From NCBI RefSeq assembly GCF_013167455.1, contig NZ_CP038328.1: DNA of 64,000 nt, one strand, 5' to 3'. Positions 21,001 through 27,000 of the stretch are shown here, one piece after another (the first letter of the stretch is position 1; the number at the start of each line of letters is the position of its first letter). Made by a program: the position numbers. Source of the stretch: Escherichia coli O157:H7 (GTDB lineage Bacteria > Pseudomonadota > Gammaproteobacteria > Enterobacterales > Enterobacteriaceae).

Positions 21001-24000
21001 TTTAAGGGATAATTTAAGTAATTTTTAGATTTCAATAAAAAAATATAAACATTAAAACTCAGCATGAATAATAAACATCAAATCTTATATACATTTAAGT
21101 AGTGATGTATCACGTAAAAATATAGTCATCATAGATGTTATGCAGTACGCACAAAAAAACAGACTGGATTTGCTTGCTGATCTATAATCTTTATCTAAAT
21201 TACTATTGGCGCTTTGGATAATAACATAAGCATATATTACCTCCTAGCAATAATAGATATAACCTCATATCAAGGTGTCACTGGTAAATAATCGGATAAA
21301 AGACAGTACCGGTCGGCACATAGAGCTTCTTCTATTTCACCAGAAGTGCACAGCAGGGAACTACCAATCACACGGTTAGTGTCATGGGTGGAGGATGCGT
21401 CCCGTTCTTTCCCTATAACGGGGATACGCAGTTTTTATCAGTACATGCAGAAAAACCCCTAATTCACATCACTGCAGAAAGCATTTAATAGAAATATACA
21501 TCGTTTAAGAATTTCAATTAAATCAAGATTATTCTTAAAAATCAGATAATTCAGATTTGCATTTTTAGGAAATTATACTATAGTGCACTTAATGTTCTTG
21601 CCTTTATTTTCTGAGTAATACTGGATTTGTAATACACAACTAAGGTATAAAATGTAATGATCTACATTATAAATGATGAAGTAAGATTCAACTCATCATC
21701 TAATAAGTTAACATCACTCCTTACATCAGAGGAAGTGATACTCACTTATCCTGCGGGAAAATGCTTAAAGTTACTTTTAGATAACGCTTATAGTGTCGTG
21801 TCACACAATCAATTCTTTGAAAAAGTCTGGAGCGATAGCAGTGCCGATGTCGCAACCAACACTTTATATCAAAATATATCGATGATAAGACGTTCTTTTC
21901 GTGAAATCAGCTCAGCGACGATATTTAATGATGTTATCAGAACGGTGCCCCGTAAAGGCTTCAAAATCAATGAAGAAATCAGCATAACTGTTCTCGACAA
22001 TAATCACAATGAGAATGAAAGTGTTGAGAGTGAAGAGAATGGTACCCACACTGAAAATATAAATAAAAATCACATTGCAAAAGGTATATTTACCACAAAG
22101 AATACATTACTTATAGTTTGTTTTTTTGCGGCATGGGGGATAGTGTATATATCTTCTTATTTTTTCGATATGGCTTTTCAAAGCAAATCCCACACTATAA
22201 AAAAAATAGATGCTTTCTCAAATTATGCTCAACACCCTACTCAGGAAGGATGCAGTTATTTCTATGATAATAAATACTTTAATTCCGTAGACATGTTATC
22301 ACCGATTATTGAAAAATTGCAGAAGATGGAAATTAACTGCAAAATACATCCTTACATTTACATTGCAACAAATGATAGCATGAGCGGATTTTATGCTTTC
22401 ACCTGTAGTCAGATGTTAAACTCTGAATCACCAAATAATTGCAACTCTCTCTATTATAAAGCGGAGTAATCATATGACTCAAAGATATTTTCTGTTTGCG
22501 GGAATAATTTTATGTGCTTTTATTGCAGCAATTCTGAGCCATATTGCGTTTCATCATGCCAATGAACCAGCAGAGCAAAACATATCATGTAATGCCCATG
22601 TTATTAATTTCACCGATCATACAAAAATGGATCAATATTTTTCGTTAAATATGATTTCTGAAAATAACACAGGAAACATGTATCTCACGGGCGCATACAC
22701 GGTAGATGGAAAAAAGATAGGCTTCATCCGCCGATATGTGAGTTTTACATACAAGAAATTCCGTGATACCGTTTACTTCACCACTGTTAAAATACAAAAA
22801 ATACAAAAAGATGATAACATTAGTGATGAAATCCTTGAAAATATCACTTCTGATTTTTTCATAAAAGTTGACACCTCAATTAATTTTTATGTTACACGTC
22901 AAAATGATTACAACTACGTATTCTCTACAGGCAGGACACCACGCTTCATATGTATTTCCCACTAACAGCATTGTTGCTCCTGGCGTTTGTCACCAGTTAA
23001 TAACCTTCTGATGGCTTTGTTTATATTTTAAGGCAATAAAAAACCATTCCAATATTGGTTAATTATTTATCTGTTTACATACCATTGATAAAACTCTGTC
23101 GCTTTCATTGGTTTTGCATATAAGTATCCCTGAACTAATGTCACGTTATTATGAATAAGATATTCCGCCTGGTGAGAGGTACTGACACCTTCTGCAATCG
23201 TTATCAAATTGAGTCGATTACTCAGCTTAATAATAATATCTAAAACAGGCGTTTCGTCTTCCGCTGTAGTGAGCGTGTCTATAAAGCTTTTATCTATTTT
23301 AAGATAATCAACAGACAACTTTTGCAGAAGGCCAAGGGAACAATATCCCGTGCCAAAATCATCAACTGCAAATTCACAGCCATGGCTCCTTAATTCATTT
23401 ATTTTCTGTAATGCATGATCAGTATCTTCAACCAGATTGCGTTCGGTAATCTCAAGGACAATGTTAAATTTATCAGATATTGCATTTTTTATATGTAAAA
23501 CATCAGCAACAAAATCAGGATGTGCAAGATGTTCAGCGGCAATATTTATCCCAAGGTGAAACGGCTTTTTCACTTTCCAGCTTTGTACATCCTGAATAAT
23601 CAGTTCAAAGAGATGCTTAGTTAACGGTATAATTAAATTTTCCTCTTCTGCAGCGCGGATAAAAACTACCGGAGATATATTTTTACCATCTTCGCGTTGC
23701 CAACGCATTAACGCCTCAACCCCCAGACACGCTTTGGTTGTCGTGTCACATACTGGTTGATAATGCACAGAAAATTCTCCGGATGACATTCCTTTCTTAA
23801 TTTCTTCTGCCAGGGACATTTTCCGAGATATCCAGCGCTGCCATAAGAAGTACAGGATAAAAGAAAGAAGAATAGATAATGGAAGAATGTAAAATACATT
23901 ACTAATGACATAGGGATATAATGAAATCATCGGCGTAGTAACTGTAAGACTAGCCTGACTGATCGCAGAATTAAAATCTTTTTTTAACATATATAACCTG

Positions 24001-27000
24001 TCATTATTATTTACACCACTAATAATTGCAGGCCCTTCAGTAAAGCGAAGAGAAAATGAATCATCATTCTCATCATCAAGAACATCCATCAGATCATAGA
24101 TATATCGTGACTCTACAATACTAAAAGCTGTCATATCATTCCCTATTGGCATAAGGAACACTATGGCTGTTTTACCTGGTACAAAACTTGTACCGCTAAT
24201 TGATACTATGCGTGATTCTTTATTTTTATTGTGAAAGCTCGTACCGTAAACATCGTTAACATTCATTTTTTTGAAACCGCTAACTGAAGAACATATTTGG
24301 AAATTATTTTCTATAAGACCCGTTGTTCGAACATAGGGGGTCAATGCTCCGTTAGCAATCAATTGTTCCAGGATATCTTTGCAGGGTTTCATCACCAGAA
24401 TAGAAGTAAGCTTTGTCGTATGTTTGACAATTTGCGTAACATTTTCAAGCTGTTTTAACAGAATACCGGCGGTAATTGTCGTATCTCGATTCATTTGAAA
24501 TACTGACATAGCAAACGACAGTAACCCCCCCAGAATGCCTGGTATTATAATGAGTACAAACATTTTTTTGTTGAATACCATACATGTTTCCCCACGCATC
24601 AGGGTGATGCAACCTAAGAAATTATAGTACAATTGCCAGTAAAAGCGGGTGATAGCAGACTGATCAATGATAAGCATTTAAGATCATATAGTACTATGAT
24701 ATTTCTGAAAATTGTTACGCATGTCTGCGAATAGCTATTTAGCGCTTACCAAAATCACCCGCTAAAATGCCGCTTTATGGTGACTCACAAAAATTCACCA
24801 CATCCCTCACAACCACCTTATTACGCCCGGTCTCTTTCGCCTCGTATAGTGCGTTATCAGCCAGTCGATAGATCTCATTCGGGTTTAACGCATTTCCCTG
24901 AGTCACAACAGCGCCAATACTAATCGTCACTTTTTGTGGTATAGCGTATTCAGGATTATCGCCAGTTAAACGCTCAACATTTTCCCGAATCCTTTCCGCT
25001 AAAGCTTTCGCACGTTCAGTATCGATGTCCGTCAGCAAGACGCCAAACTCTTCGCCGCCGACGCGCGCTAAAAGGTCATCTGGTCGTATGCTTTTCCCAA
25101 TGATATTCACCACTGTTTTTATCACCTGATCGCCAACCGGATGCCCCCAGGTGTCGTTGACTTTTTTGAAGTGGTCGATATCCATAATCATGACGCAATA
25201 AGGCGTTTTTTTGGCTGATGCTGATTGAACTGTCAGTTCATTAAAAAAATAATTTCTGTTAAATATATTGGTTAAGGGATCGCGATGTGCAATGTTCTTT
25301 GTTACTCGTAGCGCACTGAATATATGGCACATAAATATTACCATAACGGTTAACTTACTGACTACTTCAATAGTGCGACTAATATACCAAGTGGACACGC
25401 TATACCTACTCATAAATAACAGAGAGATATTGTACAGTACGGCACAAAAAGCAATCACCGTCACTCCATTCCAGATATCATAGCGTAAACCATTAAAGTA
25501 TAGATTAACCGAAAGCAAGGTTAACCACATGAAAATCATTATGGTAACATATGAGGCTTTCCAAACCACCTGACCATTTTCATTGGTTAACTCGGCAATG
25601 TGTAAATTGTAGCTCTCATAATGACTAGAAAGTATGTGAGCAACTATCGCCCCCCCAAAAACAAAAAACAAACTTATGCACAAAGTCATTTTTTTGGAAA
25701 ATAAATTGCGCTGTTTTGTGTTTTCACTAACTTTATTCACCAATGCCAGAAATATTAATATGCACAAACTCATCTGACGAAACAAATAATAGATTGCAAT
25801 GTCATTTTGGACAACACTGCTTGTCAAACGCCCCTCAATAATTTGCTGAATGATAATGACGGTTTTAACAAAGTAAATCAAACAACTCAGAAAAGCCAAA
25901 CTAAGTATACAGTTTGAAAATTGCCTACGGTCATAAATGAAATACAACTGCATAAAAATAAATGCAACAGTATCGATAAAAAATAAAGCAATCATTACCA
26001 TCAGATAGGTTGATCGTGGAACAACTTCCTCAACGCCTGGCTGATTAAACCAACTATTCACCAAAACCAAAGCAAGCCCAAACAATAAGCTCACTAATAC
26101 AGTACTACTAATTCTCAAATAGTCTTTTTCCATAAAGCTACACCAATCTGTAGGTTGTAGATCCCTTTCTATTATTAATAGATATAAGAACTGTACTGTT
26201 GTCAATATGAAATTCCGCCCACAAACAATACCGATGATGATAGTTGCTGAATGTAATTATTATTGCCTAAGTGCTTTATACATTGTTTGCAACAAGCCAG
26301 GCTTGAAAATACTTATAAATGGTTATAGAAAATCCTTATAAAACATTAATTCATAGATACATTAGGAATAACAATTAAATCCGTGAGTGCCGTAGCGCAG
26401 CCTTTCATCAGGACTTTCGAAAAATCCGAAATCATGCATCGGAATTTACTGATTTAATTATTTTAATCCTAATTTATTTTGAAAAAGGCATCGGGATTTA
26501 TGCCGTATTCCTGAAGATCCTCATCATTGGAATGGATTTTCGGGCGAGAAAAGGATTTTATATGGACACTCTGCTCATCATTTCTTCTTCTCATCATCAA
26601 CAATTCACGTCTCTCTTCCGCGTTTAATAACGGATTATGAGGTGCAAAAATATCTTTCTTTTCAGTTACCTGTAATTAGATACAGAGAGAGATTTTGGCA
26701 ATACATGGAGTAATACAGGATGTATTCAAGTAGCAGAAAAAGGTGCCCGAAAACCAAATGGGCTTTGAAACTTCTTACTGCCGCATTTTTAGCAGCGAGT
26801 CCCGCGGCGAAGAGTGCTGTTAATAACGCCTATGATGCATTGATTATTGAAGCTCGCAAGGGTAATACTCAGCCAGCTTTGTCATGGTTTGCACTAAAAT
26901 CAGCACTCAGCAATAACCAAATTGCTGACTGGTTACAGATTGCCTTATGGGCCGGGCAAGATAAACAGGTTATTACCGTTTACAACCGCTACCGTCATCA

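What the first reader, a model, noticed from the sequence alone, without database searches (positions are those of the whole stretch)
23067..26719. CSS-EAL phosphodiesterase in tandem with diguanylate cyclase dgcT, next to the c-di-GMP-dependent pga operon
An opposing PDE and DGC lie on the same strand 193 bp apart, directly beside pgaABCD, whose product machinery is c-di-GMP activated. The PDE gene is island-encoded while dgcT is backbone, so the island may rewire local c-di-GMP control of PNAG biofilm.
Basis: partly seen in the sequence, partly recalled or inferred. Interest (0 to 1): 0.5.

Follow-up and report, generated by a model that had tools for sequence, protein, structure and literature searches.

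The report
Known vmpA/pdeT–dgcT–pga locus of O157
This is the already published arrangement in E. coli O157:H7 where the c-di-GMP-degrading enzyme VmpA/PdeT sits just downstream of the c-di-GMP-making enzyme DgcT, next to the PNAG biofilm operon; the genes look intact, but nothing here shows that the two enzymes work as a pair.

Summary
The window is E. coli O157:H7. On the minus strand, dgcT (24775-26133; MASE4+GGDEF, GGEEF and RxxD intact) is followed by a CSS-EAL phosphodiesterase gene (23067-24581). The gap is 193 bp if the start is the ATG at 24581. pgaABCD lies divergently at 26720-32903.

The gene is vmpA/pdeT (Z1528), the first gene of O-island 47. Its position "immediately downstream of ycdT" in EDL933 is already published.

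Refinements:
- pdeT occurs in 415 of 5426 complete E. coli genomes, not only in O157.
- 2298 genomes carry the K-12 state, where an IS3 sits 11 nt after the dgcT stop and abuts a truncated far-end island gene. K-12 therefore lost pdeT by deletion.
- 1121 genomes join serX directly to dgcT, and the homology break lies about 12 codons before the dgcT stop.
- pdeT and dgcT are both AT-rich (36% and 39% GC).
- The nearest homologues outside E. coli (56% identity or less) lie in varied accessory contexts, never beside a GGDEF gene or pga.

The "local rewiring of PNAG control" idea is untested, and the comparative data weaken it.

The parts
23067..24581 (-). pdeT / vmpA (Z1528 of EDL933): CSS-domain EAL c-di-GMP phosphodiesterase, 504 aa from the ATG at 24581. 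RefSeq annotates a 536-aa form starting at 24677.
   Evidence: The NCBIfam PRK10551 CSS-PDE match scores 313.9 bits, below its 461 cut-off, so this is a distinct paralogue. In alignment A1 all non-E. coli homologues start at the 504-aa position. GGGGAA lies at 24593-24588, ending 6 nt upstream of the ATG. Homology in O145 ends at 24586.
24492..24569 (-). PdeT TM1 (residues about 5-30)
   Evidence: Kyte-Doolittle hydropathy scan.
23916..24491 (-). PdeT periplasmic CSS domain (residues about 31-222), with Cys67 (24381-24383) and the C97-S-S motif (24285-24293).
   Evidence: Pfam CSS-motif PF12792, E 1.4e-13. C67, C97 and S98 are invariant in 19 homologues down to 34% identity.
23838..23915 (-). 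PdeT TM2 (residues about 223-248)
   Evidence: Hydropathy scan.
23109..23807 (-). PdeT EAL domain (residues 259-491). The full catalytic set is present: E289-A-L, R293, N346, E377, E380, D407-D408 within DDFGTGYCS, K428, E464 and Q484.
   Evidence: Pfam EAL, E 7.7e-66. The motifs align to the solved PA3825-EAL chain (4y9o, E 8.7e-44) and the YahA/PdeL chain (4lj3, E 1.1e-40). All listed residues are invariant in A1.
24582..24774 (-). dgcT-pdeT intergenic region, 193 bp. It holds the right edge of O-island 47. The K-12-type IS3 insertion/deletion point is at 24763/24764. A 10-bp inverted repeat lies at 24763-24754 and 24653-24644. A TATAAT hexamer lies at 24626-24621.
   Evidence: The pattern scan found no canonical intrinsic terminator. 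The region folds at z -2.85 against shuffles.
24775..26133 (-). dgcT (ycdT): MASE4 membrane sensor domain plus GGDEF diguanylate cyclase. GGEEF is at residues 359-363 and the RPDD I-site at 350-353. The last 12 codons (downstream of about 24809) are island-type and differ from those of serX-type genomes.
   Evidence: There are 6 aa differences from K-12 DgcT, none in the motifs. The C-terminus reads ...VVVRDVVNFCESP here and ...VVVKEAEILINRKDDE in serX-type genomes.
26134..26719 (.). Divergent dgcT-pgaA regulatory region, 586 bp, 34% GC.
   Evidence: The whole 24764-27500 stretch that includes it is 99.6% identical to K-12.
26720..32903 (+). pgaABCD operon, intact: pgaA 26720-29143, pgaB 29152-31170, pgaC 31163-32488, pgaD 32490-32903.
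   Evidence: PgaA and PgaD carry the same RefSeq protein accessions as in K-12.
21657..22965 (+). Island neighbours convergent with pdeT: grvA (21657-22469, ToxR/MarT-like membrane winged-helix regulator, Z1531) and a 163-aa ORF (22474-22965) that RefSeq calls FidL-like in O145.
   Evidence: GrvA is described in PMC8565820 and PMC10877973. The 163-aa protein has no Pfam hit.

Best explanation
The 504-aa protein is VmpA/PdeT. It is an inner-membrane c-di-GMP phosphodiesterase of the CSS-domain class, with the layout TM1, periplasmic CSS domain with two cysteines, TM2, cytoplasmic EAL domain. It hydrolyses c-di-GMP to pGpG and so lowers the c-di-GMP pool. By analogy with PdeC/PdeB (inferred), its activity is held down when DsbA forms the periplasmic Cys67-Cys97 disulfide and rises under reducing conditions.

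The gene is the outermost gene of O-island 47. That block runs from ycdU to pdeT and lies between tRNA-Ser serX and the 3' end of dgcT, which is why pdeT ends up 193 bp downstream of dgcT and beside pgaABCD. DgcT is an apparently active, CsrA-repressed MASE4-GGDEF cyclase. PgaCD is a published c-di-GMP-activated synthase.

The most likely reading is that PdeT acts as one more general contributor to c-di-GMP turnover; the title of the original study and a later citing paper link it to motility and biofilm in EDL933. It is probably not a dedicated antagonist of DgcT at the Pga machinery. Its closeness to dgcT and pga is best explained by where the island sits.

Shown here: domain architecture, intact motifs, island boundaries, and distribution. 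Taken from the literature: enzymatic activity and phenotypes. Inferred: redox control and a global rather than local mode of action.
For: Architecture and motifs. DgcT motifs. Identity and position as vmpA/pdeT Z1528 downstream of ycdT: PMC4287979. PdeT/VmpA as the sixth CSS-PDE in some EHEC/EPEC, and redox and proteolytic control of PdeC/PdeB: PMC5897775. OI-47 spans z1528-z1556: PMC8565820. PdeT (VmpA) functionality in biofilm formation in EDL933: PMC5635171. c-di-GMP phosphodiesterase that influences regulation of biofilm formation: PMC4076661. EDL933 has the same gene order.

Island geography: the O157 state is ycdU...pdeT-dgcT. The K-12 state is ycdU, truncated malonyltransferase gene, IS3, dgcT, with its junction found in 2298/5426 genomes. 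The serX-dgcT direct junction is found in 1121/5426 genomes. pdeT is found in 415/5426 genomes.

No dedicated pairing: homologues at 50-56% identity in Enterobacter, Klebsiella, Citrobacter and Lelliottia lie next to fimbrial or invasin-like adhesin genes, IS elements or plasmid genes, never next to GGDEF or pga genes. O145 keeps pdeT without dgcT.
Against: Same-strand tandem arrangement with no recognisable intrinsic terminator between dgcT and pdeT leaves co-transcription open, and that would favour a paired function. NCTC9064 has lost almost all of OI-47 yet keeps the fidL-like gene, pdeT and dgcT together. I could not read the primary VmpA paper (Branchu et al., PMID 23078901), so I do not know whether PNAG dependence was tested. 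The window's allele differs from the studied EDL933 allele by V19G and D46E. Redox control is extrapolated from paralogues.
Confidence: 0.8

Rival explanations
1. Local signalling module. DgcT, PdeT and PgaCD form a spatially coupled source-sink-effector unit. The island-borne PdeT specifically drains the c-di-GMP made by DgcT at the Pga synthase, which puts PNAG production under periplasmic redox control in O157.
For: The two genes are 193 bp apart on the same strand with no predicted terminator. pgaABCD lies directly beside them and is intact. PgaCD is c-di-GMP activated, and ycdT was suggested to act on PGA (PMC4287979). NCTC9064 keeps pdeT-dgcT after losing the rest of the island.
Against: About 90% of genomes with dgcT-pga lack pdeT (415 against 4329). 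Some O145 genomes keep pdeT but have deleted dgcT. None of 7 homologue contexts in other genera has a GGDEF gene or pga nearby. The adjacency follows from the island lying between serX and dgcT. ycdT is described as very weakly expressed (PMC4287979). From my own recollection, unchecked here, DgcZ rather than DgcT is the main cyclase feeding PgaD in K-12.
Confidence: 0.12
2. Island adhesin-module accessory. PdeT belongs functionally with the OI-47 surface and virulence genes (chaperone-usher fimbriae, two-partner-secretion adhesin, GrvA plus the FidL-like protein). It tunes c-di-GMP so that motility and adhesion are coordinated when those island genes are expressed, as has been reported for PDE genes attached to fimbrial operons such as sfaY/pdeY.
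For: In E. hormaechei a 55%-identical CSS-EAL gene lies within a few kb of a chaperone-usher fimbrial operon and of a Trans_reg_C + FidL_like gene pair. The regulator is 22% identical to GrvA over its full length, E 4e-17. In Citrobacter the homologue follows a giant invasin-like adhesin gene. PdeY/SfaY precedent: PMC5635171.
Against: The other homologue contexts (Klebsiella, Lelliottia, a plasmid-like contig) have no adhesin genes. The two FidL-like proteins show no significant similarity to each other, and the fimbrial proteins are only 30-35% identical, so the shared layout may be coincidence. No expression data are available.
Confidence: 0.08

Closest known systems
VmpA / PdeT (Z1528) of E. 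coli O157:H7 EDL933 (Branchu et al. 2013, PMID 23078901; named PdeT in the 2016 E. coli GGDEF/EAL nomenclature)
   Same: Same gene at the same position: first gene of OI-47, immediately downstream of ycdT/dgcT and beside pgaABCD. The surrounding 35 kb differs from EDL933 by 5 SNPs.
   Different: The window's allele carries two amino-acid changes relative to EDL933: V19G in TM1 and D46E in the periplasmic domain. Among 5426 complete genomes they are shared only with strain ECP19-598. Neither touches a catalytic residue or a cysteine.
PdeC (YjcC) and PdeB: CSS-domain c-di-GMP phosphodiesterases of E. coli K-12 (Herbst et al. 2018, PMC5897775)
   Same: TM1, periplasmic CSS domain with two conserved cysteines, TM2, and a catalytically complete EAL domain.
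   Different: PdeT is a distinct paralogue. It scores 313.9 bits against the PRK10551 equivalog model, whose cut-off is 461. It is accessory (7.6% of complete genomes) rather than core. DsbA/DsbB control and DegP/DegQ processing have not been shown for it.
PA3825-EAL (PDB 4y9o/4y8e) and YahA/PdeL EAL (PDB 4lj3/4kie): the closest solved EAL domains
   Same: The EAL domain aligns end to end (E 8.7e-44 and 1.1e-40), and every metal- and substrate-binding motif matches.
   Different: Only the EAL domain is comparable. Those proteins have different N-terminal domains. Loop 6 reads DFGTGYCS in PdeT and DFGTGHSS in PA3825.
PdeY (SfaY): a PDE gene encoded with S-fimbrial genes in UPEC, cited in PMC5635171
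   Same: An accessory EAL phosphodiesterase of pathogenic E. coli that is absent from K-12 and carried on a horizontally variable adhesin-bearing region.
   Different: No sequence comparison was made here. PdeT is not inside a fimbrial operon; an SDR gene, grvA and the fidL-like ORF separate it from the OI-47 fimbrial genes.

Membership tests
CSS-domain EAL phosphodiesterases (PdeC type) | Topology TM1, periplasmic domain, TM2, cytoplasmic EAL domain | tested here: met
   Hydrophobic segments at residues 5-30 and 223-248. Pfam CSS-motif at 31-190 and EAL at 259-491.
CSS-domain EAL phosphodiesterases (PdeC type) | Two conserved periplasmic cysteines, one of them in the CSS motif | tested here: met
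   C67 and C97-S98-S99. C67, C97 and S98 are invariant in 19 homologues down to 34% identity.
CSS-domain EAL phosphodiesterases (PdeC type) | Activity reduced by a DsbA/DsbB-dependent disulfide; DegP/DegQ processing of the reduced form | not testable with these tools
   Shown for PdeC and PdeB only (PMC5897775). Testing it needs biochemistry.
Catalytically active EAL domains | Conserved catalytic and metal-binding residues: EAL Glu, the Arg four positions on, Asn, ExxE, DD in loop 6 (DFGxGYSS), Lys, Glu, Gln. The residue list comes from my knowledge of the RocR, TBD1265 and YahA studies. | tested here: met
   E289, R293, N346, E377, E380, D407, D408, K428, E464 and Q484 are all present and invariant in A1. 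The motifs align with PA3825-EAL.
Catalytically active EAL domains | Measured c-di-GMP hydrolysis | not testable with these tools
   Indicated for EDL933 VmpA only by the title of the Branchu et al. paper and by citing papers. The primary paper could not be read.
VmpA/PdeT orthologue group (Z1528) | Gene immediately downstream of ycdT/dgcT at the edge of OI-47 in O157:H7 | tested here: met
   Gene order is identical to EDL933. The protein is 534/536 identical to the EDL933 product. The position matches the description in PMC4287979.
Active diguanylate cyclases (DgcT) | GGDEF domain with an intact GG(D/E)EF A-site, plus an RxxD I-site 5 residues upstream | tested here: met
   GGEEF at 359-363 and RPDD at 350-353. 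Pfam GGDEF E 2.8e-50 and MASE4 E 1.8e-68.
Local DGC-PDE-effector signalling module | Conserved co-occurrence of the partners across genomes | tested here: not met
   pdeT is in 415 genomes and dgcT-pgaA in 4329 of 5426. pdeT occurs without dgcT in O145. Homologues in other genera are not linked to GGDEF or pga genes.
Local DGC-PDE-effector signalling module | Physical interaction or co-transcription of the partners | not testable with these tools
   The sequence shows only that no canonical terminator lies between dgcT and pdeT.
tRNA-associated genomic island (OI-47) | Present or absent as a block next to a tRNA gene, with an empty site in other strains | tested here: met
   An empty serX-dgcT junction occurs in 1121 genomes, including one with a divergent (92.9%) dgcT-pgaA allele. 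The island block ycdU...pdeT lies between serX and dgcT in O157.
tRNA-associated genomic island (OI-47) | Compositional contrast with the flanking backbone; its own integrase and direct repeats | tested here: not met
   pdeT has 36% GC and dgcT 39%, so there is no step at the junction. No integrase lies within ycdU...pdeT; the nearby integrase belongs to a separate element between serX and ycdU. I did not search for flanking direct repeats.

The most novel reading that the evidence does not exclude
PdeT and DgcT form a co-transcribed source-sink pair that gates PgaCD locally. PNAG production in O157-lineage strains would then respond to periplasmic redox state through the CSS domain. The ancient IS3-mediated loss of pdeT in the K-12-type lineage (42% of complete genomes) would have uncoupled PNAG synthesis from that input.
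Probability: 0.1. Interest if true: 0.45.

Novelty: already known. Interest (0 to 1): 0.15.

Why it matters
As a gene identification it changes nothing. vmpA/pdeT, its position next to ycdT-pga and its status as an OI-47 gene are all published.

The comparative picture has modest value. The absence of pdeT from K-12 and from 42% of complete genomes is a single old IS3-associated deletion. The locus has been eroded independently several times: an IS1-associated deletion, a ycdU-grvA fusion, and a precise dgcT deletion. pdeT is also not restricted to the O157/O55/O145 lineage, although reviews describe OI-47 that way.

That gives natural genotypes for anyone who wants to test whether PdeT acts specifically on DgcT and PNAG: pdeT+ dgcT+, pdeT- dgcT+, and pdeT+ dgcT-.

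Tried and rejected
1. One scan of species-representative genomes (genome contigs) for PdeT orthologues in other Escherichia species found only distant EAL domains at 23-33% identity. No outgroup orthologue was found, so the polarity of gain versus loss rests on E. coli genomes only.

2. The primary VmpA paper and the two 2016 J Bacteriol papers (nomenclature; Povolotsky & Hengge) are not held in the library. I cannot say whether the IS3-deletion reading or a PNAG dependence is already published there.

3. The promoter and terminator pattern scan of 22900-26800 gave no more promoter-like sites than shuffled sequence, and no terminator between dgcT and pdeT. It was not informative about co-transcription.

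4. The Rfam scan of the whole window found nothing in 23-27 kb, so there is no riboswitch or known sRNA at the locus.

5. I considered that the 536-aa RefSeq form is the real protein and rejected it. All homologues from other genera align from the 504-aa start. The extension is not retained in O145. The ATG at 24677 has no Shine-Dalgarno sequence, whereas the one at 24581 has GGGGAA.

6. I considered that OI-47 in O157 is a recent insertion relative to K-12 and rejected it. K-12 keeps ycdU and a truncated copy of the island's malonyltransferase gene abutting the IS3.

7. I tested whether the 163-aa neighbour is FidL-like. It has no Pfam hit and no similarity to the Enterobacter FidL_like protein.

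
Full report
**What is in the sequence**

On the minus strand the window holds an ORF at 24775-26133 (452 aa from the ATG at 26133) and then an ORF at 23067-24677. On the plus strand, divergent from the first ORF across a 586-bp spacer, lie four ORFs of 807, 672, 441 and 137 aa at 26720-32903.
- The upstream minus-strand protein has Pfam MASE4 (E 1.8e-68) and GGDEF (E 2.8e-50) domains.
- It carries GGEEF at residues 359-363 and an RPDD I-site five residues upstream of that motif.
- It differs from K-12 DgcT at 6 positions, none in these motifs.
- The downstream protein has a Pfam CSS-motif domain (E 1.4e-13) and an EAL domain (E 7.7e-66).
- The first plus-strand protein scores 1457 bits on the NCBIfam PgaA equivalog, whose cut-off is 1043.
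- RefSeq annotation of an identical genome names the four plus-strand genes pgaA-D and the cyclase gene dgcT.

RefSeq instead annotates the ATG at 24677, giving 536 aa and a 97-bp gap. I favour 24581 for four reasons.
- All 17 homologues from other genera align from that position, and only the E. coli database entry carries the 32-residue extension.
- GGGGAA ends 6 nt upstream of the 24581 ATG, and nothing similar precedes 24677.
- The 504-aa form starts with a short basic stretch followed directly by TM1.
- In O145 genomes homology ends 5 nt upstream of 24581.

**Is the phosphodiesterase intact?**

It is not degenerate.
- The EAL domain aligns end to end with solved EAL domains: PA3825-EAL at E 8.7e-44 and YahA/PdeL at about 1e-40.
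- The residues I know to be required from the RocR, TBD1265 and YahA work are all present: E289 (EAL), R293, N346, E377 and E380 (ExxE), D407-D408 in DDFGTGYCS, K428, E464 and Q484.
- All of these are invariant in an alignment of 19 homologues reaching down to 34% identity.
- Two hydrophobic segments (residues 5-30 and 223-248) flank the CSS domain.
- Its two cysteines, C67 and C97 of the C-S-S motif, are invariant in the same alignment.

This is the architecture described for PdeC and PdeB. In those proteins a DsbA-made periplasmic disulfide lowers activity and the reduced form is processed by DegP/DegQ (PMC5897775). That regulation is inferred for this protein, not shown.

**Identity**

The window is 100% identical to E. 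coli O157:H7 ECP19-598 over the 7.9 kb searched. It differs from EDL933 by 5 SNPs over 35 kb, with the same gene order.

[quoted passage not shown] A review gives OI-47 as z1528-z1556, 31,727 bp, with grvA as z1531 (PMC8565820). Herbst et al. list PdeT/VmpA as the sixth CSS-domain PDE found in certain EHEC and EPEC. Citing papers credit Branchu et al. 2013 with showing that VmpA is a c-di-GMP phosphodiesterase acting on biofilm; motility appears in that paper's title. I could not read the paper itself.

So the finding is the known vmpA/pdeT-dgcT-pga arrangement. PdeT scores below the cut-off of the K-12 CSS-PDE equivalog model (313.9 against 461 bits), so it is a separate paralogue.

**Is "island versus backbone" correct?**

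Broadly yes, with qualifications. Against 5426 complete E. coli genomes:
- The dgcT-pgaA part is found in 4329 genomes.
- pdeT is found in only 415. Of these, 311 are at 99% identity or more and 104 at 95-99%. The latter include isolates from chicken, deer, baboon, mink and humans that are not labelled O157.

Four locus states emerge.

1. O157 type: a separate integrase-bearing element (expected to sit next to serX, which was not in the fetched stretch), then ycdU, an ACP S-malonyltransferase gene, a fatty-acid/polyketide-like cluster, a two-partner-secretion adhesin, a chaperone-usher fimbrial operon, an SDR gene, grvA, a 163-aa ORF, pdeT, dgcT and pga.

2. K-12 type: ycdU, a malonyltransferase gene lacking its N-terminus, IS3, dgcT. 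The IS3 terminal repeat begins 11 nt after the dgcT stop, at window 24763/24764. This exact junction occurs in 2298 genomes. Both ends of the island survive on either side of the IS3, so this state is an old, inherited IS3-associated deletion of about 30 kb that removed pdeT. It is not the pre-insertion state.

3. serX type: tRNA-Ser and its terminator are followed directly by dgcT. Homology to the window stops at 24809, and the last codons of DgcT differ (...VVVKEAEILINRKDDE against ...VVVRDVVNFCESP). This junction occurs in 1121 genomes. It is also found in a strain whose dgcT-pgaA is only 92.9% identical, which suggests, but does not prove, that it is the ancestral empty site.

4. Independent erosions:
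   - an IS1-associated deletion that keeps 86 nt of the dgcT-pdeT spacer;
   - a ycdU-grvA fusion that keeps only the 163-aa ORF, pdeT and dgcT;
   - in O145, a 1769-bp deletion (window 24587-26355) at an ATGTAT microhomology. It removes dgcT, 222 nt upstream of it, and the pdeT ribosome-binding site, leaving pdeT divergent from pgaA.

The composition profile gives no step at the junction. pdeT is 36.4% GC and dgcT 38.6%; the spacers are 34-39% and pgaA-D 44-47%.

**Does the adjacency imply a functional pair?**

The points in favour are the same-strand tandem layout, the lack of a canonical terminator in the spacer, and the published c-di-GMP activation of PgaCD (as cited in PMC4287979). The spacer folds somewhat better than shuffled sequence (z -2.85). 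A 10-bp inverted repeat (24763-24754 and 24653-24644) encloses about 100 nt, and I cannot interpret it.

The points against are stronger.
- About 90% of genomes with dgcT-pga have no pdeT, and some have pdeT without dgcT.
- Outside E. coli the closest relatives are only 51-56% identical, in Enterobacter, Klebsiella, Serratia, Lelliottia and Citrobacter.
- I inspected 7 genomic contexts covering 6 of those homologues. None has a GGDEF gene or pga genes within 7-8 kb.
- Their neighbours instead include a chaperone-usher fimbrial operon with IS elements and a GrvA-like plus FidL_like gene pair (E. hormaechei), a giant invasin-like adhesin gene with an H-NS-like gene and integrase remnants (Citrobacter), transposases, and a Rep3/resolvase plasmid-like contig.

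The family therefore behaves as a mobile accessory PDE. Its neighbourhood in E. coli is most simply explained by the island lying between serX and dgcT. PMC4287979 also describes ycdT as very weakly expressed. From my own recollection, which I did not check here, DgcZ rather than DgcT is the main cyclase feeding PgaD in K-12.

**Verdict**

The refutation test (a degenerate EAL site) fails. The arrangement is already in the literature, and the proposed "rewiring of local c-di-GMP control of PNAG" remains an untested hypothesis that the comparative data make less likely. I put about 0.1 on a dedicated DgcT-PdeT-Pga module.

My additions are small: the likely correct start codon, the exact junctions, the deletion origin of the K-12 state, the wider distribution of pdeT, and the natural pdeT+/dgcT- genotype.

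Noticed in passing
window 24582-24677 (annotated N-terminal extension of pdeT): RefSeq annotates pdeT as 536 aa from the ATG at 24677. Homologue alignment, the GGGGAA Shine-Dalgarno sequence at 24593-24588 and the O145 deletion endpoint all point to the ATG at 24581 (504 aa). The database cluster of 1841 E. coli sequences is represented by the long form.
   Followed up: yes
window 24444 and 24526 (pdeT codons 46 and 19): Two of the 5 SNPs separating this window from EDL933 over 35 kb fall 82 nt apart in the 5' part of pdeT. Both are non-synonymous: V19G in TM1, which creates a run of 7 G's, and D46E in the periplasmic domain. Only 1 of 5426 complete genomes (ECP19-598) shares them. They could be strain-specific changes or assembly errors.
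   Followed up: partly
L002 7400-9011 (K-12), compared with window 24764 and L003 10368-11309: In K-12 and 2298 complete genomes an IS3 sits 11 nt after the dgcT stop. Its other end abuts a malonyltransferase gene lacking its N-terminus, and that gene is full-length at the far end of OI-47 in O157. K-12 therefore lost about 30 kb of OI-47, including pdeT, through an IS3-associated deletion.
   Followed up: yes
L007 8520 (O145 RM9154-C1) = window 24587-26355 deleted: Some O145 genomes have a 1769-bp deletion at an ATGTAT microhomology. It removes dgcT, 222 nt upstream of it and the pdeT ribosome-binding site, which leaves pdeT back to back with pgaA. pgaB is also frameshifted in that strain.
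   Followed up: partly
window 24809 and L005 5955-6000 / L023 4958: The last 12-15 codons of dgcT come in two versions: ...RDVVNFCESP in island-bearing and K-12-type genomes, and ...KEAEILINRKDDE in genomes where serX abuts dgcT. The island junction therefore lies inside the coding sequence of dgcT.
   Followed up: yes
window 21657-22965: grvA (a ToxR/MarT-like regulator, published as Z1531) is followed 4 nt later by a 163-aa ORF. RefSeq calls that ORF FidL-like in O145, but it has no Pfam hit. An E. hormaechei island with a PdeT homologue also carries a Trans_reg_C + FidL_like pair, resembling Salmonella marT-fidL. The region is 33% GC.
   Followed up: partly
window 24644-24763: A perfect 10-bp inverted repeat (AGCGGGTGAT ... 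ATCACCCGCT) encloses about 100 nt of the dgcT-pdeT spacer and is followed by TTTTAC. The spacer folds at z -2.85 against shuffles. Its function is unknown. The K-12 IS3 insertion point lies exactly at its left arm.
   Followed up: partly
window 32958-33151 (+) and 58409-58489 (+): Rfam gathering-level matches: Ysr251 (antisense RNA family, 184.5 bits), which overlaps the 3' end of phoH on the opposite strand, and naRNA4/CssrE (73.3 bits).
   Followed up: no
window 1-20100: The rest of OI-47 fills the left third of the window: a fatty-acid/polyketide-like cluster (ketoacyl synthases, ACP, FabZ-like, AcpS), a ShlB/FhaC-plus-filamentous-haemagglutinin two-partner secretion pair, a 32-34% GC gap at 12-14 kb, and a chaperone-usher fimbrial operon with two chaperones and a 444-aa fimbrial protein.
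   Followed up: no
window about 38835-40178 (+), between efeU and putP: A 447-aa hypothetical protein gene lies in a patch of 38% GC. It is annotated only as hypothetical in RefSeq (L001 39536-40879).
   Followed up: no
window 56001-57000: A sharp local drop in GC (0.344) with strong negative GC skew (-0.27) inside otherwise 50-55% GC sequence. I did not examine it.
   Followed up: no
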